Shown in pieces: positions 3,659 through 53,205 of a stretch of 58,934 nucleotides of DNA. Position 1 is the stretch's first letter. Every line of letters starts with the position of its first letter. The translations under genes and the position numbers were made by a program. Under the pieces are notes generated by a model. It did not search any database. It was not told the DNA's origin and worked only from the letters and a program-made list of their open reading frames with translations. This DNA comes from a virus (Duplodnaviria > Caudoviricetes): IMG/VR virus record IMGVR_UViG_3300037852_000224, positions 1-58,934 of that record. The stretch is one strand, 5' to 3'.

Positions 3659-4317
3659 TCCCCTCCTCCGCCGTTCCCATCCACTCCGTTTACGGCGTAA
3701 ACTTCCGGTTCCGCGAGGTGCTTGTTGGCCAACATTAGCTCCCAGTTGGTCATGATTTCATCCCTGGTGAAGTCGAATTGGACAGGGAGGTAGTCGGGAT
3801 TCATCCCGCCGGTGTAATTGCCACAGAGGAAGTTAGGATGCAAGATTACTGTGGTGCATGGGGCACTGTAGGCCACTGACAACATCGCTAAGTACCCTAG
3901 AGTCTGCCATAACCAGGGGGAGAGTTTGCCGGTGGGGGAGAATTCGGTGAGTTGTTTGGAGGAGTAGTAGGTGGCCTTGATCTCGTGTAGGATTAAGCGG
4001 CCTGTCTCCGGGTCGATGTGGATGGCATCCGGCGTACCGTAAATCCCATCTAGCTCAAACTCTCCTAAGTGGTATTCGAAGTCTGGGAATTGTGTGGCCA
4101 GTCTCGGCGCTAACCAGTCCTCCCATGCGAGACCGATTATCATTTTGATTTCCCGGTGGCGGCGAGGGGGGAGGATGGCTCCGGGGGTGGGGGATGGGTA
4201 GATCCCTTGGGCAACGGCGAGTTTCTTGATGATACCGGACAGGTGGACACCGGACGACCGGGGGGCGGAAGTGGATGAGGAGGCGGAGATGGGGATGGAG
4301 AGATGGGTGAGAGTCAT
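3655..4317 (-). CDS. PD-(D/E)XK exonuclease (Cas4/lambda-exo-like)
   Basis: GLAWE, GTPDAI, HEIKAT, WQ..GY motifs. Confidence 0.75.
   Translation of the reverse strand: MTLTHLSIPISASSSTSAPRSSGVHLSGIIKKLAVAQGIYPSPTPGAILPPRRHREIKMIIGLAWEDWLAPRLATQFPDFEYHLGEFELDGIYGTPDAIHIDPETGRLILHEIKATYYSSKQLTEFSPTGKLSPWLWQTLGYLAMLSVAYSAPCTTVILHPNFLCGNYTGGMNPDYLPVQFDFTRDEIMTNWELMLANKHLAEPEVYAVNGVDGNGGGGE
3689..3701. promoter_or_regulatory. Palindrome TTTACGGCGTAAA (copy 1 of 8)
   Basis: Exact 13-bp palindrome repeated genome-wide. Confidence 0.75.
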
Positions 4318-4658
4318 ATGGATTTGGCCTTTTCGTCGGCTTTTTCTAGGGCGACAGGCAGAGAGGATATGAATTTGGTGAGATCGTCGCGGGAGCGGAA
4401 GGCGAGTTCGATAATGTTGATCCCGTCCCCAACGCGGACGATTATGGATTGGTCGATGGGTTCGTGCTCAAGGCGGGAATACACCTGAGCGTAATGGATG
4501 TTGATTAAGGTAGGGCGGTAAAGTCGGATGTCCACAGGAATTCCTTTTTCAATGTTCCGGTACAAATGCCCACGGTGGGAGTCACCAGTTAGATCTAGGA
4601 CAGGATGAAAATCCATCCCACCCATAGACTCCCACCGTGGGTGTAGTCGGGACTGCAA
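4314..4658 (-). CDS. Hypothetical protein
   Basis: ORF overlapping the next gene in the operon. Confidence 0.45.
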   Translation of the reverse strand: MQSRLHPRWESMGGMDFHPVLDLTGDSHRGHLYRNIEKGIPVDIRLYRPTLINIHYAQVYSRLEHEPIDQSIIVRVGDGINIIELAFRSRDDLTKFISSLPVALEKADEKAKSI

Positions 4659-4719
4659 CAGGCCACTCGGAGGATATAGGTCCTGAAACCCGACACAAGG
4701 AAAAGACTGAACAGTATGG

Positions 4720-5640
4720 CTATTGCGTGGACAGTGTACCGGTCATCGACCCGTCATCCGCCACGGCGAAGTCCTCAAGCAGCAGGTTGTTATCCGCCGC
4801 GATCTGTTTCATGATGTCCACCTTGCGGGATTCGCCGATGAGATTGATCCGCCCTTTGCCCTTGATGCCGCGTTCGGAGATGGCCGACAACAATTGCGCA
4901 GGGAACTGGGACATGTCGATATAGCCGTCCTTGTTGGAAGTGATGAGGGCGAGGACGATACCAGCGAGGTCGGAGGAGTGGCCGTTACCGGTAGCCACAG
5001 CGGAGGAAGCGGTAGGAGCGGCGGTGGCGGATGCGGCAGGGGAAGGGGCGGCGGTAGGGCGGCGGGCACCACCTTTGGCCTCCCAGGGGAATTTAGCGCG
5101 AGTAGGAACGAGGATTTCATTAATCCGCTTAGGGGGTTGACCAGGGGCCTGTGCCTGTGCGGCTGATGCTGGATCGTTGCGGAAGTCGCGGGCTGGGGGA
5201 AGCATGCGAACCATGGTTAGTTCAGCACCGATTAGGCACTTCATCCCTTGGGGGCCGTCCAATTGTTCCCCCGGCATACCACAGTTCTCGATGAACCCTT
5301 TGTGGTAAGCGAAGTGCCAGTTGGAGGAATCGATGAGTCTCCCTCCGGTGCCTTTCATATCCAGGTAGAACGCTGAACTGTCTGACCCTGGAGTGACGGC
5401 GGATGGATCGGGTTGGTAGTTGGCGGCGGTGCCGACGTTCCAATTGACAACTACATCCTTGCCTTCATTCCCGCCGTCGGTGGGGGTGAATAGCATTTCG
5501 ACGCACATCTGAGAGTTGGCGGGTTGGTTGCCGTTGTAGTCCCAGAGTTTATAGCCGATGTCTTTGACGACGCCGGTGCCGCCGGGATACAACCCCCCGG
5601 CGACGAATTGAGTGTTAGAGCCGCGTGATGGAGTGGGCAT
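4720..5640 (-). CDS. Putative single-stranded DNA-binding/annealing accessory protein
   Basis: Beta-rich N-terminus, Ala/Pro linker, position in the Sak4/exonuclease/helicase module. Confidence 0.4.
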   Translation of the reverse strand: MPTPSRGSNTQFVAGGLYPGGTGVVKDIGYKLWDYNGNQPANSQMCVEMLFTPTDGGNEGKDVVVNWNVGTAANYQPDPSAVTPGSDSSAFYLDMKGTGGRLIDSSNWHFAYHKGFIENCGMPGEQLDGPQGMKCLIGAELTMVRMLPPARDFRNDPASAAQAQAPGQPPKRINEILVPTRAKFPWEAKGGARRPTAAPSPAASATAAPTASSAVATGNGHSSDLAGIVLALITSNKDGYIDMSQFPAQLLSAISERGIKGKGRINLIGESRKVDIMKQIAADNNLLLEDFAVADDGSMTGTLSTQ

Positions 5641-5679
5641 TGAGAGTTAAACTGTCCTTTCGTTGATTGGGAATGGGAA

Positions 5680-7257: not shown

Positions 7258-7266
7258 AGAAGATTA

Positions 7267-8960: not shown

Positions 8961-8999
8961 TGAAATGGCCCTTTTCTTTCAGGATTGGACGGCTTGATT

Positions 9000-9029
9000 A
9001 CTGTATCACTAGGCGTGCCTGAGAGTCAA
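9000..9029 (-). promoter_or_regulatory. Sigma70-like promoter, leftward
   Basis: TTGACT-18 bp-TACAGT with extended TG. Confidence 0.55.
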
Positions 9030-9107
9030 CGGTTACGACACATAATTCTAGGTCCTACAGGGTATAGTACCGGCGGCCCATCCACCGGCTACCCGTAGTC
9101 TTCCCTG

Positions 9108-9137
9108 TTGACGCGCCCTCACGTTTACGATTATAGT
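9108..9137 (+). promoter_or_regulatory. Sigma70-like promoter of repressor (probably leaderless transcript)
   Basis: TTGACG-18 bp-TATAGT, with the GTG start 7 nt downstream. Confidence 0.55.
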
Positions 9138-9144
9138 TTTAGGT

Positions 9145-9390
9145 GTGAGTTCCACTCTCGCCGCAAAGATCGAATCGGCCAACCGTAGTCATCTGGCACG
9201 GGAGATGGGCGTAGATCGCAGCTACATTTCCAGGGTGCTTACCGGCCATCGCGGGATGAGTTTGGACCTAGCACTTAAACTGGGACGGAAATTCCGGGTC
9301 AGTGTCGAGGATTTAGCGGAATACCTGAACTCCCGGCGGGATGCGGAATTTGCAGTGGACGTGGAAGAGGATGAAGTGGCGGTTAATTAA
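9145..9390 (+). CDS. XRE-family HTH repressor
   Basis: SHLAREMGVDRSYISRVLTGHR...SLDLALKL; divergent from the replication operon. Confidence 0.85.
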   Translation: MSSTLAAKIESANRSHLAREMGVDRSYISRVLTGHRGMSLDLALKLGRKFRVSVEDLAEYLNSRRDAEFAVDVEEDEVAVN

Positions 9391-9923
9391 TAACTTACCG
9401 CCACCATCCACCCGGCGATTCCCATCGCCCACCCCACAATCACGTCCCCCAAGTAGTGTGCTCCCACCAGGACCCGGCTAAACCCTATCGCAATGGCGAT
9501 TAGAAGCGCTAGGACGAGCCAGGGCGTTCCTCGTCCTGTACCTACGGCAAGGGCGGCGGCAAGAGCACAGGCGGCATGCTGGGAGGGAAAGGAACGGGCG
9601 TACAGTCTACGGGCACGGGAGCCGACGATACGGATGGTGGAGCGGGAATAGGCTAGGTCCACCGCTGTGGTAGGCCGGGGACGGCGAATGAGGGATTTGA
9701 GAATGGCGGTAGCGGTCCAGGTTACAGCGATGGATTCGGCTAGGCGATGGGCAAGGATGGAGTGGCCGCCGAATCGCAGGGAGAGGTAGATGGCGGCGTA
9801 CAGTAAACCGTCTCCAAGATGGGAGAGGAAACGGTAGAAATGGCGAAGGGGATTGGATGGTGGTGCGATGGCGTAATGGTGGATTGCAGCGGTGGCGCGG
9901 CGGTCAAGGTCGATGAGGAGCAT
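9387..9923 (-). CDS. PAP2-family membrane lipid phosphatase
   Basis: KSLIRRPRP, SFPSQH, SRVLVGAHY motifs plus TM helices. Confidence 0.9.
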   Translation of the reverse strand: MLLIDLDRRATAAIHHYAIAPPSNPLRHFYRFLSHLGDGLLYAAIYLSLRFGGHSILAHRLAESIAVTWTATAILKSLIRRPRPTTAVDLAYSRSTIRIVGSRARRLYARSFPSQHAACALAAALAVGTGRGTPWLVLALLIAIAIGFSRVLVGAHYLGDVIVGWAMGIAGWMVAVSY

Positions 9924-10696: not shown

Positions 10697-11015
10697 CGTA
10701 TTTATGCTCTCGGTTCATTCGTTCCAGTGTCTCCCTTTTCAGCTCCTCCAACTCCTGTTTTTCCTGTTTACGCCGTAAATCGCTGTAGTGATGCCAACCG
10801 CAATGGCAAGTAGCGCCATCGTACGCTACTTTTTCAGTCTGGTCGGTGTGGTTGATGAAGTGGACGGAGTCGGCCCATACGCTGACCCGCCAGAGCCAAC
10901 AAGATAACCATCCGGCGGAGTAGGCGAGAAAATACCGCCAGCCGAAGACACTGAAGATGCATGCGCTGGTGAGAGAGCAGAGGAAGATGACGAGAGTGCG
11001 GTAGGAGATTTTCAT
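10689..11015 (-). CDS. Membrane protein
   Basis: N-terminal hydrophobic helices, charged C-terminus. Confidence 0.5.
   Translation of the reverse strand: MKISYRTLVIFLCSLTSACIFSVFGWRYFLAYSAGWLSCWLWRVSVWADSVHFINHTDQTEKVAYDGATCHCGWHHYSDLRRKQEKQELEELKRETLERMNREHKYDA
10767..10779. promoter_or_regulatory. Palindrome TTTACGCCGTAAA (copy 2)
   Basis: Exact motif. Confidence 0.75.
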
Positions 11016-15805: not shown

Positions 15806-15851
15806 GGGACGATTGAATCCTCTCCTGGAATGAGTTTACGCCGTATTCCCT

Positions 15852-21610: not shown

Positions 21611-22389
21611 TCTATCTTTGCTCCCACAGTCCCGACCACGTTAACCAGATTTACATTAGCAAGCTGAAAGCACGTGCTCTGCCCTGCCACCAGAGGCAAT
21701 CCGGTGGAACTCGTCACACCAGAAGGGCCGACGTACAATGTCGTGGTATTCCCAATGTCCGCCACCACACACACTTGCCGTGATGCCTGCGTACTCAACG
21801 CCGCTGCCGATCCCGTTACATTCTGCTGCCCCGTAACCAGTGTCGATAGCCCATACAGCGCCTCTTGCCACGGCACAGTGGATTGTGGAACCGGACATGG
21901 GTTAGGGCACCCCGACCCACTCCCTCCTCCCCCTCCCCCCGTCCCCCCCGTCTGCCCAGTCTTATACCCATACAACACCCCTTTGGTCTGCCCGCTACTC
22001 CCCATCACAACATTCACTCTCACCCACGGCGTATCCACCACTGTACCGGTCTGCAAATTACTAAACGTGGCAATCCCCGTGCCACTGAATACCGTGGTTC
22101 CGGTGTAGGTTCCATATGATGTGGGAGTGGCAACACCAACACTGCTCTGAAACGTCACTGTAGGACTTAAACTCGACTGCCATTCCAGCGTCCACGTCAC
22201 ACACCCAGCGGTGCGGTTATCGAACCCATTCCCCACTGGAAAATTGTATGTCGCCGCCGCCGCTCCCGCTCCGGTATCAAAAGGGATTAGGCAATCCGGT
22301 TGCGGTGGTTGTCCATTGACGTTTACGGCGTAAACTACGGCCACGGTGAGAATCAGGATGTAACGGAAATGTTTTATTGACGTTAACAT
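21592..22389 (-). CDS. Secreted two-domain beta protein with Gly linker
   Basis: Signal peptide; GGGGGGSGSG linker; NTTTLYVG...GLPLVAGQS beta domain. Confidence 0.6.
   Translation of the reverse strand: MLTSIKHFRYILILTVAVVYAVNVNGQPPQPDCLIPFDTGAGAAAATYNFPVGNGFDNRTAGCVTWTLEWQSSLSPTVTFQSSVGVATPTSYGTYTGTTVFSGTGIATFSNLQTGTVVDTPWVRVNVVMGSSGQTKGVLYGYKTGQTGGTGGGGGGSGSGCPNPCPVPQSTVPWQEALYGLSTLVTGQQNVTGSAAALSTQASRQVCVVADIGNTTTLYVGPSGVTSSTGLPLVAGQSTCFQLANVNLVNVVGTVGAKIEWSATD
22322..22334. promoter_or_regulatory. Palindrome TTTACGGCGTAAA (copy 3)
   Basis: Exact motif. Confidence 0.75.
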
Positions 22390-23687
22390 GGGATGCGGGC
22401 TACTCCTTTAAAAGTGAGCGTTACCGTGGGGCCGGTGCCGCTGAGAGGGGAACCTACAAAGTTAATAAAAGACTGCCCCGCTCCGGGGGAGATGAGGACG
22501 GCGCCGGGATCGTCGGTGAGTTGGTTGTAAACCTGCACCTTGGGCGTCCAGGAGCCGAAGGATGGACTGGTGGCGAGGTAGAGGATGGAGGAATCGCCTA
22601 CGGTGGTGTCACCGGGTTGAGCGGCAAACCAGAGCATGGAGACGATACCACTGGAGACGGAGATGGCACCGGCGATGATGTTGGCGTTGGCGGCGATGGC
22701 GCCGGGGTCTACGGCAGTGTCGATGGTCCAGACAGGGGCGGAGGAGGGGGAACCGTAGAGGACGATAGGGATGGGGAAAGTGCCGGTGGGATCGTAACCG
22801 GCGGCGGAGACGATGAGTTTACCGCCGGAGACGACGCCTTGGCCAATCCAGATTTCGTTTCCGCCGTAGGTGGGGAAGGTATGAGGCGAACCCAATACGT
22901 TGGCGGAGGAGAAGGATAGGTAGTAAGTGTTGGGGGTGTTATCGGATAGGAAAATGTGGCAGGTTTGCAAGATTGGATCGAAAACCAATTCCATCCAACT
23001 GTTACCCGCGTATACTCCCCCGGCGTTTTGACGTTGGAGGGTGTGGCCGCCAGTGAAGAATGAGGATACAGTCTGTGGTGCCCCCCAGACACCGGAAGCG
23101 TAAACCGCTACGTTGAGGACTGTATTGCTGCTGGTGGTGTAGAACGCCACTAGGGACCCATCGGCCCGTTTGACCAGAGCGGAGCATCCGGTGGTGGATG
23201 GGCCACCGGTGCCGTAGGCGGCCCCGAATGTGCCGGTTGAGAAATTGAAATCGACAAATTGAAGTGGAGAGAGGGCCAATTGGCTGGCGGGAGGATAGCA
23301 GACTGTGGCCGCCGGGGAAGCGCCGTCCCAGTACACACCGTAAAACCCGCCGCCGTTTAGGGCGAGAGTGCCGGTGATGGTGATGTGATCGGAGAGGGTC
23401 CAGGTGGAGCCGCCGTTGGAGGAGACGTAGACCTTAATAGCACTGGAACCGACTGCGATAGTTTGAAGAAATAGGAACAGCTTGCCGCCTACGGAGAATA
23501 GATGGATGTTGGCGTTGGCCGATTGGGAAGCGGACGTAGACGCGGATTTATCGATGAGGACGGGAGTGTAGGGTGGAGAACCACCAGTGGCCTTCATCCA
23601 AATGGTGGAGAATTGATAGCCAAACGGTTCTGATGTTGCTACACCGTCGAACACCAGATTAAACGGGATGCGGGAAGAGGATGGCAT
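22383..23687 (-). CDS. Beta-propeller protein (BNR/Asp-box), vertex or receptor-binding candidate
   Basis: YVSSNGGSTWT Asp-box-like motif; repeated W/F-G blade patterns. Confidence 0.6.
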   Translation of the reverse strand: MPSSSRIPFNLVFDGVATSEPFGYQFSTIWMKATGGSPPYTPVLIDKSASTSASQSANANIHLFSVGGKLFLFLQTIAVGSSAIKVYVSSNGGSTWTLSDHITITGTLALNGGGFYGVYWDGASPAATVCYPPASQLALSPLQFVDFNFSTGTFGAAYGTGGPSTTGCSALVKRADGSLVAFYTTSSNTVLNVAVYASGVWGAPQTVSSFFTGGHTLQRQNAGGVYAGNSWMELVFDPILQTCHIFLSDNTPNTYYLSFSSANVLGSPHTFPTYGGNEIWIGQGVVSGGKLIVSAAGYDPTGTFPIPIVLYGSPSSAPVWTIDTAVDPGAIAANANIIAGAISVSSGIVSMLWFAAQPGDTTVGDSSILYLATSPSFGSWTPKVQVYNQLTDDPGAVLISPGAGQSFINFVGSPLSGTGPTVTLTFKGVARIPC

Positions 23688-23697
23688 GCGTTCCAGT

Positions 23698-24363
23698 CTA
23701 CCGCGAGTAAAACCAGCCGCTTAATGATGCCACTACAGAGGCATCGGGGGCCAACACACCACGACCGGAGGCGAAGAAATCGGCGTAGACTGTGACGAGG
23801 TCGCCAGAGTACACACGGAGACTGGAATTGGGAGTGGGCACGGGGATGGTAAGTGACCCGATAGAGAATTGCACGTTGCCTAAGTCGCGGAGGAAACGTG
23901 GAGTGGCGATGGCGTCTGCCGCCACACGCCATGCTAAGGTACCGGAGCCTTCAATGAATCCAGTTGATCCACTGGTGCCGGGGGTGGTGCCTAGGACGAC
24001 TGTATCGATTACACCGTCGTAGCCGATGGGGACGGTGAATGATAATACCGCTACGAGTGTATCCCCTGCCACTGGCGGATTGGTGCCGACCAGGATGGAG
24101 TTAATCTCCCGGAATCGCCTGCCTGAATCCGGCATGGCGATGTAGGGTTTAAGGATGTACGGTTCTCTCCCACGGGGGCAGCAGATTTGATTGAGGCCGC
24201 CAGCCACAACCTCATCCCATAGGCATTTTTCCGCCTGTAGACACTGGTCGTACACATTACCAGGGGGACGATTGGAGATTCTTCCAATGTCCATGTAGGT
24301 GCGGACTTGCGGCGGGAGCACTGAAGTTCCGAATCCCGCGATGGTGTAAGGAAGTTGGGGCAT
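23698..24363 (-). CDS. Probable single jelly-roll structural protein
   Basis: LSFTVPIGYDGVI...GSLTIP...VYSGDLVTVYA...VASLSGWFY strand pattern. Confidence 0.5.
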   Translation of the reverse strand: MPQLPYTIAGFGTSVLPPQVRTYMDIGRISNRPPGNVYDQCLQAEKCLWDEVVAGGLNQICCPRGREPYILKPYIAMPDSGRRFREINSILVGTNPPVAGDTLVAVLSFTVPIGYDGVIDTVVLGTTPGTSGSTGFIEGSGTLAWRVAADAIATPRFLRDLGNVQFSIGSLTIPVPTPNSSLRVYSGDLVTVYADFFASGRGVLAPDASVVASLSGWFYSR

Positions 24364-24372
24364 GCGATTCCT

Positions 24373-24963
24373 TTAATAGTTGGGTCCACGCTTACCGTTG
24401 TGGTGGAAACCGGGGTTGCCATCGAATGCGTAAGGCTGTGGGCCGGGACGCGGCGCGGCGGTGAACAGGACCAATTGGACGGCTTGAGTGGAACTGGAAT
24501 TGTTGTAAATCTCCACGTTGACTAGTCCGGGGTCGGAGATTAACCGTGGCTGAGAGAGTAGGAACGGCGCCCGTTGAATTCCAGTGGGGGAAGCGCTGAA
24601 CAGTGACCCCAGGGCATAGTCGGAGAAGATGGGCGTTTCAGTGCACGCATCGGTGACTTGGATGTGGAAATTGGAGTTGGCGCCACCGGCTGTAATCACC
24701 GCGAGGAGCCAGCCGTACAAGTAGGAACCTGGGTCGATTGACAATTGCTGTTCCACTTGGGAGTACGCCGGGATGTCGCCGATGGGATTGTTGTTGGCCC
24801 CGCCGCCGGGGGAGGGGTTTTCAGGAGTGGGGACGACGTAAGCCTTGAACTGGTAGGAGCTGGCGAGACGCAGGGTCTCCATTTGAGCCAGCACGGACGC
24901 CCGATGAGAGATCGGGAGGAGCAGTTGGCTAAGGGAGTAAGTGAAACCGTCGATTGGGTCCAT
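24373..24963 (-). CDS. Probable single jelly-roll structural protein
   Basis: LSIDPGSYLYG..FHIQVTD..PFLLSQP..VEIYNNS..VQLVLF. Confidence 0.5.
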   Translation of the reverse strand: MDPIDGFTYSLSQLLLPISHRASVLAQMETLRLASSYQFKAYVVPTPENPSPGGGANNNPIGDIPAYSQVEQQLSIDPGSYLYGWLLAVITAGGANSNFHIQVTDACTETPIFSDYALGSLFSASPTGIQRAPFLLSQPRLISDPGLVNVEIYNNSSSTQAVQLVLFTAAPRPGPQPYAFDGNPGFHHNGKRGPNY

Positions 24964-24976
24964 GGTGGATTGTGGT

Positions 24977-25882
24977 TTATGGTATCAGGCTTAAAACGTC
25001 GAAACGGATAACGCTGTTGACTTTGTACGTAATTCCCGGCGAGGGAAAGAAATTAAGCGGATTATTGGCCGCGTTGACGTAATGGCACAGACGATTGCAA
25101 TTGACCGGGCCGTTCGACCGTGCCCGCCAATTGTTGTCGTAAAGTACCATTTGGAACTCCGGGTGGTTGGGGTCCTGTGAATTGGTCACTCCACCGGCAT
25201 TGGTGAAAGTGTATTCAATACGGCGGAGTTCAAAATCATTGTCCTGAATCGGGATGGTGAATTGGACTGGGCTACCTGGGCCTGTGGCGGTGGCGTCGGT
25301 GTTGAGAGTGAATGTGATGGAATAGGAGAAGTCCTCTTCCTTATACGCGTAGTCGCTGGGGGCAGGGTCAGAGACGGCGCTCATTTCACGACGAACCCCG
25401 TAGAAGGCCAGTTGCGACACTGGGGTGACAGCGGTCAAGTCCAGTGCCAACTGCACATTGGATAAGTCGAAGCGGAGAGCGGAGTTAAGGGGGAATTCCT
25501 TCTCCGGCAGTACCGCAGTGTTGGTGTTGGAATTGGAAAACACACTCACCGGCACGTCGAAAAACAACCGTGTGGATGCGTCGTAGATTTGAATCTTTCC
25601 CCAGGTGGATACCGCCCCGGCGCCGGACAGTGTGGAACTTGCCCCGCCCCATGCGCGGAGTACAAACCCACCATCCTGAATCTCAATGGGGATGTAAGCG
25701 TAGGATTGACCGTTGATTAATCCCTTCTGTCCTGGGTTGTAAACGTAGACGTAGAAATAATCTCCATACCCTTCCGGCGTTTTGTAATCGTACATCCCCG
25801 CGCTCCTTTTCACCGTTGCGTCCGAGAATGCGCATGGAATCCTCCGCACCCCCTTGAATATCAATGTGGCTGTGGCGGCCAT
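24977..25882 (-). CDS. Probable tandem (double) jelly-roll structural protein
   Basis: Internal duplication IEIQDGGFVLR / IPIQDNDFELR and NSALRFDL / NSVIRFDV. Confidence 0.55.
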   Translation of the reverse strand: MAATATLIFKGVRRIPCAFSDATVKRSAGMYDYKTPEGYGDYFYVYVYNPGQKGLINGQSYAYIPIEIQDGGFVLRAWGGASSTLSGAGAVSTWGKIQIYDASTRLFFDVPVSVFSNSNTNTAVLPEKEFPLNSALRFDLSNVQLALDLTAVTPVSQLAFYGVRREMSAVSDPAPSDYAYKEEDFSYSITFTLNTDATATGPGSPVQFTIPIQDNDFELRRIEYTFTNAGGVTNSQDPNHPEFQMVLYDNNWRARSNGPVNCNRLCHYVNAANNPLNFFPSPGITYKVNSVIRFDVLSLIP

Positions 25883-26296
25883 TTAGTATTTGTACCGGTT
25901 CGCTCCCAGGAATAGGATCTGCCCGCTGTTGGCGGCGCCACTTAGGTCTTGGATGTCGATGGTGATTCTCCCTCCGGCTGGGTACCACACTTCAGGGAAG
26001 TAGGGGTAGGGGTCGCCAGCGGAATTGGGCATGCACAGGGAGTTAATCAGCCCCGCGCTTAAAGCATATTGCTGACCATCGTAGAGACGGATTTGGAATC
26101 CCCCGGTGGAGGTGAACAATAAGCCACGGAACATAAAATCCGCGTCGGTCTGGATGCTCAATGTGTTGCCCAGGGATAGTTGATTGGATGTAAGTGAGAA
26201 AGAAAATGGGTAGCCGTAGGCCACGTCCAGATAGCCGGACGGAACGTTCGTGGGCATCGTGCCCTGGATGGCGGCGGGGGAAATCGGGTTGGTCAT
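25883..26296 (-). CDS. Probable single jelly-roll capsid/penton protein
   Basis: SIQTDADFMFRG..FQIRLYD..PEVWYPAGGRITIDIQD..QILFLGANR, paralogous to the halves of 24977-25882. Confidence 0.55.
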   Translation of the reverse strand: MTNPISPAAIQGTMPTNVPSGYLDVAYGYPFSFSLTSNQLSLGNTLSIQTDADFMFRGLLFTSTGGFQIRLYDGQQYALSAGLINSLCMPNSAGDPYPYFPEVWYPAGGRITIDIQDLSGAANSGQILFLGANRYKY

Positions 26297-26336
26297 TGCG
26301 TCTCCTCTTGGATGATGGAATGTCGATGTTGAATAT

Positions 26337-26526
26337 GCCGACCGGAGCGAGAGTTAGGCGGTGTGGCTACCCCTCGCCCCTGCCAGCGTTGCACGCATCA
26401 CTGGATGCCCATCCAAAACACCCAGTGGAGTGCAGATTGAGTCCCATGCCAAGGGGGAATAATCCCGGCACGGGGCTCAAACACAGGGGGATGAGTATAG
26501 AGGCCGAAACCACCATGCCCATCCCC
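26337..26526 (-). ncRNA. Structured intergenic RNA element with four consecutive hairpins
   Basis: Stems at 26487-26526, 26437-26480, 26390-26434 and 26337-26387; most mismatches become G-U pairs on the minus strand. Confidence 0.55.
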
Positions 26527-32632: not shown

Positions 32633-32645
32633 TTTACGCCGTAAA
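32633..32645. promoter_or_regulatory. Palindrome TTTACGCCGTAAA (copy 4, intergenic)
   Basis: Exact motif. Confidence 0.75.
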
Positions 32646-39794: not shown

Positions 39795-39807
39795 TTTACG
39801 CCGTAAA
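39795..39807. promoter_or_regulatory. Palindrome TTTACGCCGTAAA (copy 5), at the head of the morphogenesis operon
   Basis: Exact motif in a divergent intergenic region. Confidence 0.8.
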
Positions 39808-44443: not shown

Positions 44444-45418
44444 TTACAGCAACTCCGCTAGTTTCCGGTTAAACGCCGGTCCACCGAGCTTCCCACTCAA
44501 CAGCTTTATCACCAGGGTCAACACCCCTTCTACCGCCGCCTGCCGCTTAGTAGGTTCCTTACCCTCCGGGATCTCCTCTTTCACCCCAGCAATCCCATCC
44601 TCACACACCTGTATGGCCTTTTTCGCCGAAATCGCCAGTTTCTTCCCCGGCGTCTCCGCGTCGTCCTTAGCCGCCTTGCCCTTTTTCCCCTTCCGCCCAC
44701 TCCCGGTGGTGCCCCCGGCCTCTTTCTCCGCCGCCAGCTTGGCAAGGAATGCATCCTGATCGGCCTCACTCATCGTCACCAAATCCCGCGCCACGGTCCA
44801 CCCGATGTCCCCGGTGTGGATCTTGTTTTGAATCTCCGGGCGTAATTCCATCAACCGTTTCATCTGACTGACCCCGCCCTTACTCAGCCGGATCTTCGCA
44901 CATACCTCCGGCAGTTTGTACCCGGCCTCCAACATCTTGCATATCGCTTTGGCCTTGTCCATCGGCGAGAAATCCTCCCGCTGGGCGTTCTCCGACACGT
45001 TGACGCCGAGCATTAACTTTGCTGTGGTGGCGGCATCTACACCCTTCCCCTTGGCCTCCTCAATATGCACCGGCACGAACCCGTCATGCTGTTTCGTTTC
45101 CATCGCCGCCACCACCGCCGCCGCACGACTGTATCCAGCCTCCAACTGATACAGGAAATGCACATCCGCGTCCACCGCGCCGTTCCCATTCCCATTCCCA
45201 TTCTCAATCCGGCTCACGATCAGCGGCTCATGCATCCCTTCCGCCACAATCGACGCCGACAGCTCCGCGATTTTCTTCGCCGACGGCGGGCCATACCGTG
45301 TATTCCGTTCCGGGTTGATAAGAATATCCGTGATGGGCACGGTACGAAAATCCCCCGTAGCCGTCACCATCGATGTACCTGCATTCGCACTTGTGCTCAC
45401 GTCTTTCTCCTTTTTCAT
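44444..45418 (-). CDS. parB: ParB/KorB-family CTPase-HTH DNA-binding protein
   Basis: NTR, LSASIVAEGMHEPLIV, AGYSR, ENAQREDFSPMDKA, followed by an HTH. Confidence 0.85.
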   Translation of the reverse strand: MKKEKDVSTSANAGTSMVTATGDFRTVPITDILINPERNTRYGPPSAKKIAELSASIVAEGMHEPLIVSRIENGNGNGNGAVDADVHFLYQLEAGYSRAAAVVAAMETKQHDGFVPVHIEEAKGKGVDAATTAKLMLGVNVSENAQREDFSPMDKAKAICKMLEAGYKLPEVCAKIRLSKGGVSQMKRLMELRPEIQNKIHTGDIGWTVARDLVTMSEADQDAFLAKLAAEKEAGGTTGSGRKGKKGKAAKDDAETPGKKLAISAKKAIQVCEDGIAGVKEEIPEGKEPTKRQAAVEGVLTLVIKLLSGKLGGPAFNRKLAELL

Positions 45419-46023: not shown

Positions 46024-46036
46024 TTTACGCCGTAAA
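46024..46036. promoter_or_regulatory. Palindrome TTTACGCCGTAAA (copy 6), upstream of the operon containing parB
   Basis: Exact motif. Confidence 0.8.
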
Positions 46037-48503: not shown

Positions 48504-48516
48504 TTTACGGCGTAAA
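48504..48516. promoter_or_regulatory. Palindrome TTTACGGCGTAAA (copy 7)
   Basis: Exact motif upstream of the helicase operon. Confidence 0.75.
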
Positions 48517-50436: not shown

Positions 50437-50848
50437 CGCCTTCTCCCATTACCTCTCTCTGCCGCGTTGGGCGTTTCTTCGACCGCTTGATTGCCGCCGA
50501 CGCCGAAAACCATCGAATGATTTCCACAGGTAGATAGTACTCAAATGCTAGGTTTGACATCCGGTCGTATACATCCGGGTCCACCTGATTGTGACTCTCC
50601 ATGTAAATCAGTTTCGACAGGCTTATACCCAACCGGCTTGCTAACTGCTCATCTTTCAGCCCCGTGAATTTGCGCAGGATGGATAGGCATCCTGGGAGGT
50701 CCAGCGGACGGAATCCCATCTTCAATCCATCCACGGCCTTCTTTATCGCTTTCTCCCGGCTACTGTGGCGGCGGCGAAACAAGCGCTGCCAGAATTGCAA
50801 CGGTGGTGGCTGGGGCGATGCGGGTGGCGTCGGTGTGGGTTTACCCAT
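50429..50848 (-). CDS. XRE-like HTH protein
   Basis: LRKFTGLKDEQLASRLGISLSKLIYME. Confidence 0.6.
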   Translation of the reverse strand: MGKPTPTPPASPQPPPLQFWQRLFRRRHSSREKAIKKAVDGLKMGFRPLDLPGCLSILRKFTGLKDEQLASRLGISLSKLIYMESHNQVDPDVYDRMSNLAFEYYLPVEIIRWFSASAAIKRSKKRPTRQREVMGEGDA

Positions 50849-50854
50849 GTTCCT

Positions 50855-51193
50855 CTACCCCGCCCATCCCATCATCGTCGGGTCCTTCCCTACCGGCCCG
50901 TTCAATTCCACCACGTCGGTGAATGTATCGTTGGCCAGTTCCATGATCGCGCCGGAGCGGATCTGTTCGGCCAGCGACCGTGTAAGTGGGGAGCGCACGA
51001 CGGTCTCCCGTTCATCCCACGGGGCGTTCTCAAGATGACGCTCACGGATGATTTGGTGGGAGTAATGAAATTCCACCTTGCCATCTTGATTCGAGTGTGC
51101 GTACACGATGGTTTCAACCTGGGTAAGCGGCAGGTCGGTGGTGAGAAAGGAAAGCTTCAAAGTGTCGGGATCGCGGGTCTGGGTGACGGACAT
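50855..51193 (-). CDS. Hypothetical protein
   Basis: GAGGAGG SD; own promoter-like TTGCGC-18-TAGTCT. Confidence 0.6.
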   Translation of the reverse strand: MSVTQTRDPDTLKLSFLTTDLPLTQVETIVYAHSNQDGKVEFHYSHQIIRERHLENAPWDERETVVRSPLTRSLAEQIRSGAIMELANDTFTDVVELNGPVGKDPTMMGWAG

Positions 51194-51428
51194 TGGATGG
51201 TTCCTCCTCAGTAAGACTACACATAGAACATTAACACGCGCAAGTATATTCTGGAACTAGTCGCGTACATTAAAGGGGGATACCTATGCATAGTACACCT
51301 TGGTATAAATTTGACTTGGTATCACTACCAAGATGCAAACCAAAAATGACACATTTCGAGTCGTTTTTTGGTCATCATTTGGTACCGGTGTTGATGCCAA
51401 TAGTGCTACAGAGGTCCCAAATTTTGGC

Positions 51429-51457
51429 TTGACGTGTGATCCATGAGTAGTTATAAT
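51429..51457 (+). promoter_or_regulatory. Near-consensus sigma70 promoter
   Basis: TTGACG-17 bp-TATAAT. Confidence 0.75.
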
Positions 51458-51466
51458 GTCACTATC

Positions 51467-51811
51467 ATGATTTGCTTCCAATGCCTCAACTTCGACACCT
51501 CCGTAGTCGATTCACGGCTTACTGAATTTGGTAAGACGGTTTGGCGGCGGCGAGTGTGCCCAAAGTGCAAATACAAATTCACCACCTACGAGCGGCCACC
51601 CATAGAGGTTCTAGCGTTGGCTCATGTCAATGTGACCAAGCTGCAAAAGAAATCGAATCGTCTAAAGCCCAATCCATACGCCGCTCCGATGGCAGAAGAA
51701 TCCTTACCGGTACCACCCAATACCGCCGTTCTCAGTGAGGTGGAAGAATTGAAATTGTTGGAGCGAGATTTAGCTAAAGCGCTCAAAGCCAAAGGGAGCA
51801 ACACCGCATAA
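51467..51811 (+). CDS. NrdR-like zinc-ribbon protein lacking the ATP-cone
   Basis: CFQC...TSVVDSR......RRRVCPKCKYKFTTYE. Confidence 0.75.
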   Translation: MICFQCLNFDTSVVDSRLTEFGKTVWRRRVCPKCKYKFTTYERPPIEVLALAHVNVTKLQKKSNRLKPNPYAAPMAEESLPVPPNTAVLSEVEELKLLERDLAKALKAKGSNTA

Positions 51812-51824
51812 AGGTACGACTACA

Positions 51825-52151
51825 ATGCTTTGCCCGATCTGCGAGAGTCCCACTGTAGTCATAGGTAGAGTCAAATATCAATACCGCTATAGGAAGTGCA
51901 AGATCTGTGGCCACAAATTTGGCACTAAGCTCGATATGTATCTCCACGAGAGTCTGTCCAGACCGGATGTGCACGAAAGGAACGAAGATTTCATCGCTAT
52001 GAATGTATTGGCTGAAAAACTCAAACGCGCCAACATGGAAAATTCATTGGCCCCATCTGAAGATCTGCTTCAATTCGAAGATTTCTTGCTGTCGGAGATT
52101 GAAAGAGGTTGGAAGAAGGTCAGTAGAATAGCCAGGGGTAGTAATTTCTAA
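51825..52151 (+). CDS. Second NrdR-like/Ogr-like zinc-ribbon protein
   Basis: MLCPIC...YRYRKCKICGHKFGT. Confidence 0.6.
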   Translation: MLCPICESPTVVIGRVKYQYRYRKCKICGHKFGTKLDMYLHESLSRPDVHERNEDFIAMNVLAEKLKRANMENSLAPSEDLLQFEDFLLSEIERGWKKVSRIARGSNF

Positions 52152-53205
52152 GGAACTGATACAGTCTCAACGTGGCATCCGCATCCCTCACGGCATACTG
52201 CACTAAATCCCCCTCCGGCACGTCCGCAATGGACGGTCTCGGCCATTCCCCCACCAGCATCCGCATCATCTCATGATCATGCCTGTGCCAATTCCTCACC
52301 CGCTTAAACGGGTCGAACTCCTCATCCTTCCACCGGGAGTTTACGCCGTAAATTGAATCCTCATCCACGGTGGAGGGGTCGGTATCATCCTCATCGTCTC
52401 CTAGATAGGAATACTGTGTAGTGGTGGAGATTCCGGCCAACAGGTTGTTAGTCTTGCGCAGCAGTAAACCTAGGAGCCTGTCAGTGGCGTCCTTTTTAGG
52501 GTTGTGGAGCTTATAGTGGGCGCAGGGGCAGGAGGGGGTGGTACAGGCCCCTTTGAGCTTGCCGGTGGCTCCACGGGCGTTGTGGGCGTCCCTAGGGCAT
52601 CCACAGAGGCAGACTGGGCCTTCCGGGCCGGTGCCGATGGAGGAGACCAGGGATTCCAGGTAGGCGGCTAGTTTCGGCGCTGAGTTAGGGTACACAGTGT
52701 CCCGGAAGGATGTCATTTTGATGTTGCAGTGGCGATAGGCGAGGGATTTAAGGCTGAGGCTCCCTCGTCCCGCCATTCCACTCTCATCGTCCGATCCACC
52801 GCCGCCGAGACAGGCGAGGTAGGCCAAGACCATCGTGTCCCGGAAATGTGGGATGGGGAGGCCCAGTATGCTAAACGGGTGGACATCGTGGAGGTAGTTA
52901 TGAAACAGCAACGGTGCCGTCGGAGTGGCGATGGCGCACATCTCTTTCAACGCTGCCAGGGACGCCCTATCCCGTGTGTATATCAACCTGCCTGTGCCGG
53001 GTTGGATGGAGAAGGTTACACAGTATGGCCGGTGGTCGGGGGTGGATTCGGTGTCCAGGGCGAGTTCGGGGTAATTGCCCCATAGGTGACCGTAAAAGTA
53101 GTCGTGGACTTGGATTGGTGTGCGGCAGATAGAGTAATCGAGGGTGGAAGGGGGGTGGGGGTCGAGACGGAGAGTGGAGATGTAGGAGAGGGCGGCGGCA
53201 TTCAT
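52120..53205 (-). CDS. Stand-alone PolA-type 3'-5' exonuclease
   Basis: ExoI ALDTE, ExoII FHNYLHD, RDTMVLAY, SLKSLA, ExoIII YAVRDAD. Confidence 0.85.
   Translation of the reverse strand: MNAAALSYISTLRLDPHPPSTLDYSICRTPIQVHDYFYGHLWGNYPELALDTESTPDHRPYCVTFSIQPGTGRLIYTRDRASLAALKEMCAIATPTAPLLFHNYLHDVHPFSILGLPIPHFRDTMVLAYLACLGGGGSDDESGMAGRGSLSLKSLAYRHCNIKMTSFRDTVYPNSAPKLAAYLESLVSSIGTGPEGPVCLCGCPRDAHNARGATGKLKGACTTPSCPCAHYKLHNPKKDATDRLLGLLLRKTNNLLAGISTTTQYSYLGDDEDDTDPSTVDEDSIYGVNSRWKDEEFDPFKRVRNWHRHDHEMMRMLVGEWPRPSIADVPEGDLVQYAVRDADATLRLYQFLRNYYPWLFY
52340..52352. promoter_or_regulatory. Palindrome TTTACGCCGTAAA (copy 8, intragenic)
   Basis: Exact motif. Confidence 0.75.

What the first reader, a model, noticed from the sequence alone, without database searches (positions are those of the whole stretch)
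3689..52352. Strand composition flips from C-rich to G-rich at a repeated palindrome: multiple origin-like sites?
Seen: at several TTTACG(C/G)CGTAAA copies the + strand is C-rich to the left and G-rich to the right, with no change in gene orientation. Hand counts on chosen 60-nt lines: 3541-3600 C25/G9 versus 3901-3960 G25/C8 (site 3689). Lines 52201-52260 (C27/G11) and 52501-52560 (G27/C10) lie inside one ORF (site 52340). The same flip is visible at 10767, 22322 and 39795 (genes do diverge at 39795), and is weaker at 32633, 46024 and 48504. Some flips (near 0.7 and 9.2 kb) have no perfect site. Known: this polarity is the signature of a bidirectional replication origin. Inference: the palindromes mark repeated loading or initiation sites (multi-origin replication, or bidirectional helicase/repair tracts), which is unexpected in a 59-kb virus.
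Basis: partly seen in the sequence, partly recalled or inferred. Interest (0 to 1): 0.9.

Follow-up and report, generated by a model that had tools for sequence, protein, structure and literature searches.

The report
Strand-bias flips at a repeated phage palindrome
In a novel 59-kb soil phage, the G-versus-C balance of the DNA strands really does flip at most copies of a 13-base palindrome that resembles a plasmid KorB/ParB binding site, as if some two-way DNA process starts there, but which process is unproven.

Summary
The + strand switches from C-rich to G-rich at the copies. The mean jump is +0.32; 0 of 100,000 random placements and 0 of 50,000 draws of motif-less gene starts reach it. 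The flip sits at synonymous sites: four-fold skew goes from about -0.6 to +0.5..+0.8 at four sites. It is uniform over all eight codon families, independent of gene strand, and occurs once inside the PolA-exonuclease ORF. Five sites are strong, two weak or displaced, and 48504 shows none.

The motif has the architecture of the IncP KorB operator TTTAGCSGCTAAA, and the phage encodes a ParB-family protein. The only syntenic relative has 12 copies of a different 13-mer at partly matching places.

ParB-type sites alone do not cause skew: neither that relative nor plasmid R751 flips.

My best reading, at confidence 0.4, is two-way DNA synthesis starting at these sites. Divergent transcription is the main rival. 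No read-level data were available.

The parts
3689..3701 (.). Palindrome copy 1. TTTACGGCGTAAAC reads on the + strand. It lies in the 3' tail of ORF 3655-4317, 30 nt upstream of the ThyX gene start at 3658. Strong flip.
   Evidence: Four-fold skew -0.64 to +0.49. Change-point 3712-3715, support interval 3682-3748.
10767..10779 (.). Palindrome copy 2 (G-centre form on the - strand), 70 nt upstream of the - strand start at 10696. The flip is local.
   Evidence: Four-fold skew -0.58 to +0.47. Position-3 change-point 10773-10782. Dropping this site improves the equal-strength global model by 12 lnL.
22322..22334 (.). Palindrome copy 3 (G-centre form on the + strand), 55-67 nt inside the 5' end of the longest ORF 21592-22389 and just past the stop of the 434-aa gene. 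Strongest flip.
   Evidence: Four-fold skew -0.59 to +0.78. Change-point 22303-22318. Leave-one-out loss 90.6 lnL.
32633..32645 (.). Palindrome copy 4, in a 23-nt spacer 6 nt upstream of the ATG at 32626. Weak flip, displaced about 300 nt to the right.
   Evidence: Four-fold skew -0.39 to -0.13. Change-point 32932-32974. Dropping it improves the global model by 13 lnL.
39795..39807 (.). Palindrome copy 5, in the divergent intergenic region: 8 nt from the - strand ATG at 39786 and 121 nt from the + strand gene start at 39929. Strong flip.
   Evidence: Four-fold skew at w=1000: -0.35 to +0.60. A sigma-70-like match uses the motif as its -10. A G006 site at 57985 occupies the matching divergent position.
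46024..46036 (.). Palindrome copy 6, 17 nt upstream of the - strand ATG at 46006. It heads the short run of genes that ends in the ParB-family gene. Partial flip: the skew becomes less negative but not positive.
   Evidence: Four-fold skew -0.63 to -0.17. Leave-one-out loss 26.9 lnL. Sigma-70-like match at 46051-46022.
48504..48516 (.). Palindrome copy 7, 116-128 nt inside the 5' end of the longest ORF 47967-48632. No long-range flip.
   Evidence: Jump 0.12 at w=500 and -0.04 at w=1000. Leave-one-out loss 3.0 lnL.
52340..52352 (.). Palindrome copy 8, in frame (I-Y-G-V-N) inside the PolA 3'-5' exonuclease ORF, between the ExoII-like and ExoIII-like stretches. The flip is strong and lies within one gene.
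   Evidence: Four-fold skew -0.50 to +0.49. Change-point 52333-52336, support interval 52300-52375. The Exo motif labels are my own reading of the translation, from memory.
15835..15847 (.). Degenerate copy (2 mismatches), 29 nt upstream of a - strand start. No flip. Serves as an internal negative control.
   Evidence: Jump -0.09 to -0.17. Adding it worsens the model from -4228.5 to -4252.2.
54060..54072 (.). Degenerate copy (1 mismatch). No flip. Serves as an internal negative control.
   Evidence: Jump -0.12 to -0.21. Adding it worsens the model to -4241.2.
44444..45418 (-). ParB-family protein (N-terminal ParB/Srx-like domain plus HTH). It is the candidate binder of the palindrome, and copy 6 lies about 600 nt upstream in the same gene run.
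   Evidence: Pfam HTH_ParB 1.4e-8. PHROG ParB-like 2.5e-17. PDB profile search: Spo0J 1.5e-14, ParB 2.8e-14, Noc 1.9e-13, KorB 6.1e-6. 25% identity to R751 KorB over 252 aa, E 2e-5.
52120..53205 (-). PolA exonuclease-domain ORF, separate from the polymerase-domain ORF 49045-50436. It carries both skew regimes.
22335..26400 (.). Example of a G-rich (+ strand) flank to the right of a site. All genes here are on the - strand. Four-fold skew falls from +0.56..0.63 to about +0.1, and reaches about -0.3 before the next site at 32633.
   Evidence: The genes are confirmed as - strand by homology to G006.
8961..9500 (.). Motif-less upward flip at a divergent promoter-like gap (- gene 8625-8960, + gene 9145-9390).
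   Evidence: Jump peak at 9496. Minimum at 9489. Sigma-70-like sites at 9108-9137(+) and 9029-9000(-). No copy with 3 or fewer mismatches within 400 nt.

Best explanation
There are two linked claims.

(1) What the motif is (about 0.65; inferred, binding not shown). The 13-bp palindrome, extended to TTTACGGCGTAAAC(T), is a protein-binding site of the ParB/KorB operator type. It is most likely bound by the phage's own ParB-family protein (44444-45418). Copies sit at or just inside the 5' ends of leftward gene blocks, much as the 12 O_B sites sit on the ~60-kb IncP plasmids.

(2) What the flips are (about 0.4; inferred). They are the footprint of a strand-asymmetric mutation process. It starts at the exact copies, runs both ways with equal strength, and fades over about 2-3 kb. 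It enriches G (and T over C at two-fold sites) on the strand that reads 5'->3' away from the site. Among known processes, the best match is DNA synthesis starting at or beside the sites in both directions: true initiation zones, or nick/break-primed synthesis. In either case one strand stays single-stranded for long. That gives the same polarity as a bidirectional origin and a saw-tooth like mammalian skew N-domains.

Shown: the motif, the flips, their synonymous-site nature, their symmetry, and their independence of gene strand. Inferred: who binds the motif, and that DNA synthesis is the source.
For: Motif excess: 8 copies against 0 expected.

Flips tied to the motif and not to gene boundaries: 69 motif-less - strand gene starts have mean jump -0.07, and 0 of 50,000 draws of 8 reach the motif mean. 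0 of 2 degenerate copies flip. Change-points lie within about 60 nt of the motif at 4 sites, one of them inside the PolA-exo ORF.

Mutational rather than selective:
- the G<->C shift is alike in all 8 four-fold families, roughly C 0.37-0.71 / G 0.07-0.29 on one side against C 0.12-0.41 / G 0.38-0.62 on the other;
- two-fold sites shift too: C/(C+T) 0.66 vs 0.50 and G/(G+A) 0.43 vs 0.61;
- no polar oligomer stands out beyond base composition.

Symmetry and strand independence, from a logistic model on 6374 four-fold G/C sites:
- null -4417.5; gene strand alone -4415.8;
- symmetric two-way decay with lambda 3 kb -4228.5, with left and right amplitudes +1.03 and -1.12;
- the same coefficient in - strand genes (1.09, n = 5749) and + strand genes (1.02, n = 625);
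- sense-only plus baseline at best -4237.1; square wave -4305.2;
- 0 of 300 random 8-site sets reach the observed fit.

Size of the effect: four-fold skew varies 2.8 times more than binomial sampling predicts, against 1.7 times in G006 and 1.3 times in NP1.

ParB link:
- a ParB-family protein is encoded;
- O_B is TTTAGC(G/C)GCTAAA, with twelve sites on a ~60-kb plasmid and clamps that slide kilobases (passages read in PMC11790492, and PMC13768133);
- the syntenic relative G006 has a 37%-identical ParB-like protein and 12 copies of another 6-1-6 13-mer, TTTCACAGGGAAA, again at 5' gene ends. Two of them (57985, 41044) lie at places matching window sites 39795 and 22322.
Against: Against the origin-like reading:
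- no physical evidence exists, because only Logan contigs could be laid;
- nothing beyond 13-15 bp is conserved around the sites, so there are no iterons, DnaA boxes or AT-rich element;
- raw AT skew does not flip consistently, and A/T at four-fold sites barely moves;
- 48504 shows no flip, 32633 is displaced by about 300 nt, and dropping 10767 or 32633 improves the equal-strength model;
- at least 3 flips (about 720, 9490, 37250-37490) have no motif copy with 3 or fewer mismatches nearby;
- the relative G006 shows no jump at its 12 sites (mean -0.10 to -0.03), and R751 shows none at 9 O_B sites (mean -0.065 to +0.008).
So a ParB-type site is not sufficient, and the effect is so far known from this one genome.

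Against the ParB link:
- the CTP-binding arginine patch is degenerate, GYSRAAA aligned to GERRYRA;
- no ParA-like partner appeared among the 61 of 89 ORFs scanned;
- the flank base C (8 of 8) and T (6 of 8) on one side only make the site directional, which a symmetric dimer does not require.
Confidence: 0.4

Rival explanations
1. The flips are linked to transcription. The palindrome is, or overlaps, a promoter/operator that fires in both directions: sense to the left and antisense to the right. Alternatively, skew depends on position within the operon, with the coding strand G-rich at the 5' end and C-rich at the 3' end. In either case the exposed non-template strand loses C. The flip then marks where one transcription unit ends and the next begins.
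For: - 7 of 8 copies lie within 130 nt of a - strand ORF 5' end, and 3 lie 6-17 nt upstream of an ATG. The same holds for most G006 sites.
- The motif's TAAAC(T) end scores as a -10 hexamer at 3 sites: 46051-46022, 48531-48502 and 39780-39809.
- Motif-less flips at about 9.1-9.5 kb and about 51.0-51.4 kb coincide with divergent gaps that hold good sigma-70-like matches, 10 of 12 and 11 of 12.
- A post hoc lead: the four sites with a rightward TAAAnT (3689, 22322, 39795, 52340) are the four with the highest raw right-side skew at w = 500. This is 1 chance in 70 before allowing for the many features I looked at. With four-fold skew, 10767 breaks the separation.
- Opposite skews at the 5' and 3' ends of genes, also at four-fold sites, are described for fungi (abstract of PMC3315797 read).
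Against: - Gene strand by itself explains nothing (lnL gain 1.7), and adds nothing to the two-way model.
- Mean coding-strand four-fold skew is only 0.02.
- Left and right amplitudes are equal, which would require antisense transcription as strong as sense transcription across kilobases of genes.
- The sense-only model fits worse by 8.6 lnL despite having one more parameter.
- Promoter-like matches are no more frequent than in shuffles: 11 vs 12.6, 8 vs 10.9, 9 vs 13.3.
- No -35 element is conserved.
- G006 has the same operon layout and no such pattern.
- The skew is far larger than in the two comparison phages.
Confidence: 0.3
2. The flips follow from protein traffic, or from selection, rather than from DNA synthesis or transcription starts. 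Clamps loaded at the palindrome move outward and bias repair or recruit a strand-specific enzyme. Alternatively, strand composition is selected, for example to control R-loops or Rho loading at operon ends.
For: The 2-3 kb decay length is on the scale of the kilobase sliding described for KorB and ParB (passages read in PMC13768133). A ParB-family gene is present.
Against: R751 O_B sites and G006 sites show no flips. The arginine patch needed for CTP clamping is degenerate. The shift is uniform over all codon families and no polar words stand out, which argues against selection on particular signals. I recall no known mechanism by which a symmetric clamp produces opposite strand biases.
Confidence: 0.12
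3. The pattern comes from mosaicism or chance. The conserved 13-mer would be a recombination joint between modules that come from lineages with opposite strand bias, or the association would be accidental.
For: Phage genomes are mosaic. Many genes here have no counterpart in G006: only 32 of 89 are shared.
Against: - All 8 jumps have the same sign at w = 500, whereas joints would give up and down steps equally.
- The downward returns are gradual and never fall at a motif.
- One flip lies inside a single exonuclease domain.
- The permutation tests give 0 of 100,000, 0 of 50,000 and 0 of 300.
Confidence: 0.05

Closest known systems
KorB - O_B operator network of IncP-1 plasmids (RK2, R751)
   Same: Both have a 13-bp 6-1-6 palindrome with TTTA...TAAA arms and a central G/C: O_B is TTTAGC(G/C)GCTAAA, here it is TTTACG(G/C)CGTAAA. 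Copy number is similar, twelve sites on a ~60-kb replicon against 8 on 59 kb. Sites lie from a few bp to over 1 kb from promoters. The binder belongs to the ParB family and slides kilobases from its loading site (passages read in PMC11790492 and PMC13768133). The phage protein aligns with R751 KorB at 25% identity over 252 aa.
   Different: The inner dinucleotide is swapped (GC to CG). PDB similarity is stronger to Spo0J, ParB and Noc than to KorB. The GERR-type arginine patch is degenerate. No IncC/ParA or KorA-like partner was found among the 61 of 89 ORFs scanned. R751 shows no skew jump at 9 O_B sites in its first 50 kb.
Bidirectional replication origins read from cumulative GC skew, and mammalian skew 'N-domains'
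   Same: The + strand goes from C-rich to G-rich across the site. There is a sharp upward step, then a gradual fall to the next site. The decaying or linear shape fits better than a square wave (-4228.5 and -4240.0 against -4305.2). The pattern is independent of gene orientation. The N-domain literature is recalled from memory and was not read here.
   Different: There are up to eight sites in 59 kb. Only 13-15 bp are conserved and no unwinding element is present. AT skew does not follow. Four-fold skew of +/-0.5-0.8 is much larger than in the two comparison phages. No physical evidence of initiation exists.
Prophage-plasmid N15 SopB with its IR1-4 centromere sites
   Same: A phage genome that carries several copies of an inverted-repeat site for its own ParB-family protein (N15 SopB and IR1-4 named in passages of PMC7205306).
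   Different: N15 has a SopA partner and four sites. That its sites are dispersed and affect gene expression is recalled from memory, not read here. No skew link is known to me. Here no ParA was found, and a small tyrosine recombinase is present (11620-12432).
Mycobacteriophage stoperators (cluster A) and start-associated sequences (cluster K)
   Same: Many copies of a 13-bp site are spread through a ~50-60 kb phage genome, close to gene starts or stops. This is recalled from memory and was not read here.
   Different: Those sites are asymmetric and follow the direction of transcription. Stoperators are bound by the immunity repressor, not a ParB-type protein. I recall no strand-composition effect. 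G006's one-orientation 13-mer (11 of 12) resembles them more than the window's palindrome does.
[quoted passage not shown]
   Same: The skew changes sign along a transcription unit, also at four-fold sites (abstract of PMC3315797).
   Different: The sign is reversed: fungal genes are C-biased at the 5' end, whereas here the 5' end is G-rich. The fungal pattern is per gene, not per multi-gene block, and is not anchored on a sequence motif.

Membership tests
ParB/KorB-type operator (parS / O_B-like) system | A ParB-family protein (N-terminal ParB/Srx-like domain plus HTH) is encoded on the same replicon | tested here: met
   Pfam HTH_ParB 1.4e-8. PHROG ParB-like 2.5e-17 over residues 17-265. A 3-sequence profile matches Spo0J at 1.5e-14 over positions 20-205, and KorB at 6.1e-6 over the HTH only.
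ParB/KorB-type operator (parS / O_B-like) system | A short palindromic site in several copies with the architecture of the family's sites | tested here: met
   8 copies against 0 expected. Same 6-1-6 length, TTTA/TAAA arms and central S as O_B. This is a resemblance, not proof of binding.
ParB/KorB-type operator (parS / O_B-like) system | The protein binds the site specifically | not testable with these tools
   No protein-DNA tool was available. The only indirect support is one relative, G006: its protein is 37% identical with a different putative recognition helix, and its 13-mer differs but has the same architecture.
ParB/KorB-type operator (parS / O_B-like) system | CTP-binding arginine patch (GERRxR) needed for clamp closure and sliding | tested here: not met
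   The profile alignment to Spo0J puts GYSRAAA opposite GERRYRA, so one of three arginines is kept. The ENxQRxDLSP box is conserved. The box names are recalled from memory.
ParB/KorB-type operator (parS / O_B-like) system | A partner ATPase (ParA/IncC) or clamp-locking co-repressor (KorA/TrbA) | tested here: inconclusive
   No ParA-like or KorA-like hit among the 61 of 89 ORFs scanned with Pfam and/or PHROGs. 28 mostly small ORFs were not scanned.
Bidirectional replication origin | GC-skew polarity switch (a minimum of cumulative skew) at the site | tested here: met
   6 of 8 motifs lie within 300 nt of a minimum, and 0 of 5000 random sets match this.
Bidirectional replication origin | The switch is independent of gene orientation and present at synonymous sites | tested here: met
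   The gene strand term is null. The coefficient is 1.09 in - strand genes and 1.02 in + strand genes.
Bidirectional replication origin | Origin architecture: repeated initiator sites plus an easily melted AT-rich element | tested here: not met
   Only the 13-mer plus two flank bases are conserved in 45 nt upstream and 35 nt downstream. One copy lies in a coding sequence.
Bidirectional replication origin | Physical evidence: copy-number peaks, nascent strands, fork direction | not testable with these tools
   All three runs that hold the sequence are kept as contigs. No raw reads or RNA holders were listed.
Bidirectional replication origin | The signature is conserved at equivalent sites in relatives | tested here: not met
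   G006's 12 sites have mean jump -0.096, -0.058 and -0.028 at w = 300, 500 and 1000. There is no saw-tooth at four-fold sites.
Sigma-70-type promoter | -35 and -10 hexamers at proper spacing, conserved among copies | tested here: inconclusive
   3 of 8 copies give a 9-of-12 match that uses the motif end as the -10. Totals are not above shuffles. No -35 is conserved.

The most novel reading that the evidence does not exclude
A temperate-looking soil phage of an undescribed lineage starts DNA synthesis (replication, or nick/break-primed copying) in both directions from about six dispersed ParB/KorB-type protein loading sites. On this reading a partition/silencing-type operator doubles as an initiation zone. 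The 59-kb genome then carries a mammalian-style saw-tooth of skew domains, with extreme single-strand exposure.
Probability: 0.2. Interest if true: 0.9.

Novelty: new variant of a known kind. Interest (0 to 1): 0.7.

Why it matters
If the flips mark starts of DNA synthesis, this would be a small phage with many sequence-defined, two-way initiation zones. It would also link ParB/KorB-type sites to replication or repair priming, which I do not know from the literature. My two full-text searches for repeated skew inversions in phage genomes listed no such case (listings only).

If the flips are transcriptional, the genome would show unusually strong two-way transcription-coupled mutation from palindromic operators.

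Either way, the sequence alone points to eight exact places where a directional process begins. That makes the question directly testable by read-depth profiling, end mapping or start-site mapping once the phage, or deep raw reads, are in hand.

Separately, the motif together with the ParB-family gene suggests a KorB-like, genome-wide regulon in a phage lineage whose structural genes have almost no known relatives.

Tried and rejected
Explanations tested and rejected:
- Amino-acid composition. The flip is largest at four-fold sites.
- Translational (tRNA) selection. All 8 four-fold families shift alike.
- A general gene-boundary effect. 69 motif-less starts have mean jump -0.07.
- Polar words of the Chi or KOPS kind. 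The largest |z| is about 4.5 among thousands of words, and none stands out.
- G-quadruplex motifs. 0 on the + strand and 6 on the - strand with G3 runs, with no pattern.
- Hidden degenerate motif copies at the motif-less flips. None with 3 or fewer mismatches lies within 400 nt.
- Mosaic joints. All jumps have the same sign.

Searches that led nowhere:
- Megablast of 6 kb against phage records found no match.
- tblastn of the 634-aa protein found no match.
- The 434-aa protein found only itself among the candidates scored.
- The UvrD-like helicase finds only 32-36% identical phage proteins, for example Nipunavirus NP1.
- A 15-mer scan of IMG/VR gave 62 stretches. No other contig carries the motif at this density: at most 3 copies in 156 kb and 2 in 38 kb.
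- Protein-pattern scans of IMG/VR returned only G006, a 24%-identical fragment and a 28%-identical protein on an unrelated 118-kb contig.
- The metagenome scan gave six loci of 1.7-10.8 kb held (contigs up to 13 kb), three of them only about 30% identical; they were too short or too distant to test.
- The protein atlas gave only unnamed viral clusters for the 647-aa protein.
- Pfam and PHROG scans found nothing for most ORFs.

Sequencing runs. No RNA holder was listed. Three soil-metagenome runs from three studies hold the stretch, all kept as contigs. The listed pieces from the two runs that are not the possible source carried no other letters (table 8). No depth profile, molecule ends or polymorphism could be read, so nothing about replication, expression or mutation spectrum follows from them.

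Tools and material not available.

Full report
WHAT THE WINDOW IS. The window is a complete IMG/VR virus record of 58,934 bp whose two ends share an identical 127-bp repeat. G and C are balanced overall: G 16,440 and C 16,407. My own codon-usage gene caller gives 86 ORFs. I added three by eye, and almost all lie on the - strand. The + strand islands are 9145-9390, 12740-14971, 39929-42501 and 51443-52151.

Recognisable genes:
- a UvrD-like helicase (46278-47963);
- a DinG/XPD-like helicase (5680-7257);
- family-A DNA polymerase split into an exonuclease ORF (52120-53205) and a polymerase ORF (49045-50436);
- an ERCC4 nuclease, a DNA methyltransferase, a thymidylate synthase and a small tyrosine recombinase;
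- a ParB-family protein (44444-45418).

Most other ORFs match nothing. The 434-aa protein found only itself among the candidates scored from 5.8 billion sequences. Three soil-metagenome runs from three studies hold the sequence; one of them may be its source.

TTTACGSCGTAAA occurs 8 times against 0.00 expected.

The skew jump across the sites (right 500 nt minus left 500 nt) is positive at 8 of 8, with mean +0.324. None of 100,000 random placements reaches that, and circular shifts that keep the spacing give p = 0.0004. Seven of the 15 largest jumps in the genome lie within about 300 nt of a copy. Six of 8 copies lie within 300 nt of a minimum of cumulative skew, and 6 of 9 minima have a copy (0 of 5000 random sets). 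At third positions and at four-fold sites it is 5 of 8 (P = 0.0006 and 0.0004).

This is not a general property of gene boundaries. 69 - strand gene starts without the motif have mean jump -0.07, and 0 of 50,000 draws of eight reach the motif mean. The two near-copies (15835, 54060) show no flip, and adding them to the model makes it worse.

WHERE THE SIGNAL SITS. It is concentrated at synonymous sites. Four-fold skew, left versus right over 500 nt:
- 3689: -0.64 / +0.49
- 10767: -0.58 / +0.47
- 22322: -0.59 / +0.78
- 52340: -0.50 / +0.49
- 39795: -0.11 / +0.44
- 46024: -0.63 / -0.17
- 32633: -0.39 / -0.13
- 48504: -0.50 / -0.08

Maximum-likelihood change-points fall within about 60 nt of the motif at 3689, 10767, 22322 and 52340. 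At 32633 the change-point lies about 300 nt to the right, and 48504 has no upward one.

Copy 52340 is read in frame (I-Y-G-V-N) inside the exonuclease ORF, between stretches I read as ExoII-like and ExoIII-like. So one gene carries both regimes, with the change-point 12 nt from the motif centre.

The G<->C exchange is alike in all eight four-fold families. Two-fold codons shift as well: C/(C+T) is 0.66 against 0.50, and G/(G+A) is 0.43 against 0.61. A and T at four-fold sites hardly move. No oriented oligomer stands out beyond base composition. This pattern indicates a strand-level mutational asymmetry. It does not fit amino-acid composition, tRNA-driven codon choice or a polar signal.

SHAPE. 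After each strong site the + strand is G-rich, and the skew declines to C-rich before the next site. It is a saw-tooth.

A logistic model on 6374 four-fold G/C sites gave these log-likelihoods:
- null: -4417.5
- gene strand only: -4415.8
- symmetric two-way exponential decay from the eight sites, lambda 3 kb: -4228.5
- linear saw-tooth: -4240.0
- square wave: -4305.2
- 'sense direction only plus a per-strand baseline': at best -4237.1

In the two-way model the left and right amplitudes are +1.03 and -1.12. The coefficient is the same in - strand genes (1.09) and + strand genes (1.02). None of 300 random eight-site sets came close; their best was -4351.

Leave-one-out losses are 90.6 (22322), 56.6 (3689), 46.0 (52340), 40.6 (39795), 26.9 (46024) and 3.0 (48504). 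Dropping 10767 or 32633 improves this equal-strength model by 12-13 units. So five sites act over kilobases, 10767 acts only locally, and 32633 and 48504 act hardly at all.

The spread of four-fold skew among 600-nt bins is 2.8 times the binomial expectation. It is 1.7 times in the relative G006 and 1.3 times in the first 30 kb of phage NP1.

WHAT THE MOTIF IS. Read with G at the centre, all 8 copies are followed by C and 6 of 8 then by T. The site is therefore really TTTACGGCGTAAAC(T). It reads on the + strand at 3689, 22322 and 48504 and on the - strand elsewhere. Nothing else is conserved in 45 nt upstream or 35 nt downstream.

Positions relative to genes:
- three copies lie 6-17 nt upstream of - strand ATGs (32633, 39795, 46024);
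- two lie in the 3' tail of one ORF, 30 or 70 nt upstream of the next start (3689, 10767);
- two lie within 130 nt of the 5' end of a longest ORF (22322, 48504);
- one is clearly internal (52340).

The architecture is that of the KorB operator. [quoted passage not shown] KorB is a ParB-family CTP-dependent clamp that loads there and slides kilobases (passages read in PMC11790492, and PMC13768133).

The phage's ParB-family protein matches Spo0J, ParB and Noc over both the N-terminal domain and the HTH (E 1e-14 to 1e-13 with a three-sequence profile). It matches KorB over the HTH (6e-6). It is 25% identical to R751 KorB over 252 aa.

THE ONE RELATIVE. A 37%-identical ParB-like protein led to IMG/VR record G006, which is 60,646 bp and 56% GC. 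32 of the window's 89 ORFs have collinear tblastn matches there at 27-59% identity.

G006 lacks the window's motif. It has 12 copies of another 13-mer of the same 6-1-6 build, TTTCACAGGGAAA. Eleven are in one orientation, mostly at - strand gene 5' ends. Copies at 57985 and 41044 occupy places that match window sites 39795 and 22322. The stretch I take to be the HTH recognition helix differs between the two proteins.

This co-variation is the best indirect support for 'ParB-family protein plus its own sites'. It rests on two genomes, and every other regulator has diverged between them too.

WHAT THE CONTROLS SAY ABOUT CAUSE. G006's 12 sites show no upward jump (means -0.096, -0.058 and -0.028 at 300, 500 and 1000 nt), and its four-fold profile has no saw-tooth. 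Nine O_B sites in the first 50 kb of plasmid R751 show none either (means -0.065, -0.022 and +0.008).

So a ParB/KorB-type site is not sufficient for a skew flip. The flips are, so far, a peculiarity of this genome, whose sites are perfect palindromes.

Flips also occur without a motif at about 720, about 9490 and about 37250-37490, and more weakly near 47.4 and 51.0-51.4 kb. Those at 9.1-9.5 kb and 51.0-51.4 kb lie in divergent gaps with good sigma-70-like matches.

MECHANISM: MY CHOICE AND ITS LIMITS. Four features point to a DNA-strand-level process that leaves each site in both directions: equal amplitudes on the two sides, indifference to gene orientation, no net effect of sense transcription, and the very large size of the skew. 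Bidirectional DNA synthesis gives exactly this polarity. A decaying or linear saw-tooth is what variable fork travel or termination between sites would give, as in mammalian skew N-domains. Skews this large are otherwise known to me from strand-displacement replication, where one strand stays single for long. Both comparisons are recalled from memory and were not read here.

Nick- or break-primed copying from the palindrome would look the same as a true origin. I put this family of explanations at about 0.4.

The main rival, at about 0.3, is transcription:
- the sites sit where promoters should be;
- the TAAAC(T) end scores as a -10 at three sites;
- the four sites with a rightward TAAAnT are the four with the highest raw right-side skew at w = 500. 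This is a post hoc observation, and 10767 breaks the separation when four-fold skew is used;
- fungi show opposite skews at gene ends (abstract of PMC3315797).

Against this rival, antisense transcription would have to be as strong as sense transcription over kilobases, and G006 shares the operon layout without the pattern.

Clamp traffic or selection (about 0.12) and mosaicism or chance (about 0.05) fit worse.

No read-level data could be obtained, so the choice between these explanations rests on sequence statistics alone.

NOVELTY. Three full-text searches on GC skew in phage genomes (listings only) turned up no described case of repeated skew inversions in a phage. A fourth search, on dispersed ParB sites in phages (listing only), turned up none of a KorB-like network in a phage. 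That is weak evidence of absence, since most subscription papers are not in the library.

I class the finding as a new variant of known kinds: the KorB/O_B network, and origin-type skew switches. The combination would be new if the origin-like reading proves right.

Noticed in passing
window 14690-14971 (+): A 93-aa ORF made almost entirely of hexanucleotide repeats (GGTCGA / GGTCGT units), that is, a Gly-Arg repeat protein. It produces a local skew spike at codon positions 1 and 2, and assemblers seem to break contigs there.
   Followed up: partly
window 50437-52119: The family-A polymerase is split into an exonuclease ORF and a polymerase ORF. The 1.7 kb between them has lower GC (0.475-0.51). 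It holds two + strand zinc-ribbon genes (one matches NrdR-like Zn ribbon at 5e-16) behind an 11-of-12 sigma-70-like promoter at 51429-51457. It looks like an inserted cassette.
   Followed up: partly
window 19376-39786: The presumed structural genes are nearly orphan. There was no PHROG or Pfam hit for the 744-, 634-, 434-, 341- and 328-aa proteins. The 434-aa protein found only itself among the candidates scored. No terminase, portal or capsid family was recognised.
   Followed up: partly
G006 (L071-L074): 1064, 3833, 4499, 14028, 16993, 20465, 33600, 36324, 41044, 47163, 50907, 57985: The related 60.6-kb virus record carries 12 exact copies of TTTCACAGGGAAA, 11 in one orientation. From memory, its halves resemble a parS half-site and a Noc-site half-site. 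A second short repeat (AGGAACGGGTAAA-like, 3-4 copies) lies beside some of them.
   Followed up: partly
window 32633 and 39795: The ATG lies only 6-8 nt after the motif with no Shine-Dalgarno sequence. If the TAAACT end acts as a -10, these messages would be leaderless.
   Followed up: no
window 11620-12432 (-) and 12740-14971 (+): A small (270 aa) tyrosine recombinase lies next to the largest + strand island. This suggests a temperate or plasmid-like lifestyle. No attachment site or repressor was identified.
   Followed up: no
window 1-127 and 58808-58934: An identical 127-bp repeat at the two ends. It is either a real terminal repeat or a circular-assembly overlap. Model distances were computed on the 58,807-bp circle.
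   Followed up: partly
window 3001-23000: The listed contig pieces from the two soil metagenome runs that are not the possible source carried no other letters. The phage therefore recurs unchanged across three studies, one of which may be the source.
   Followed up: partly
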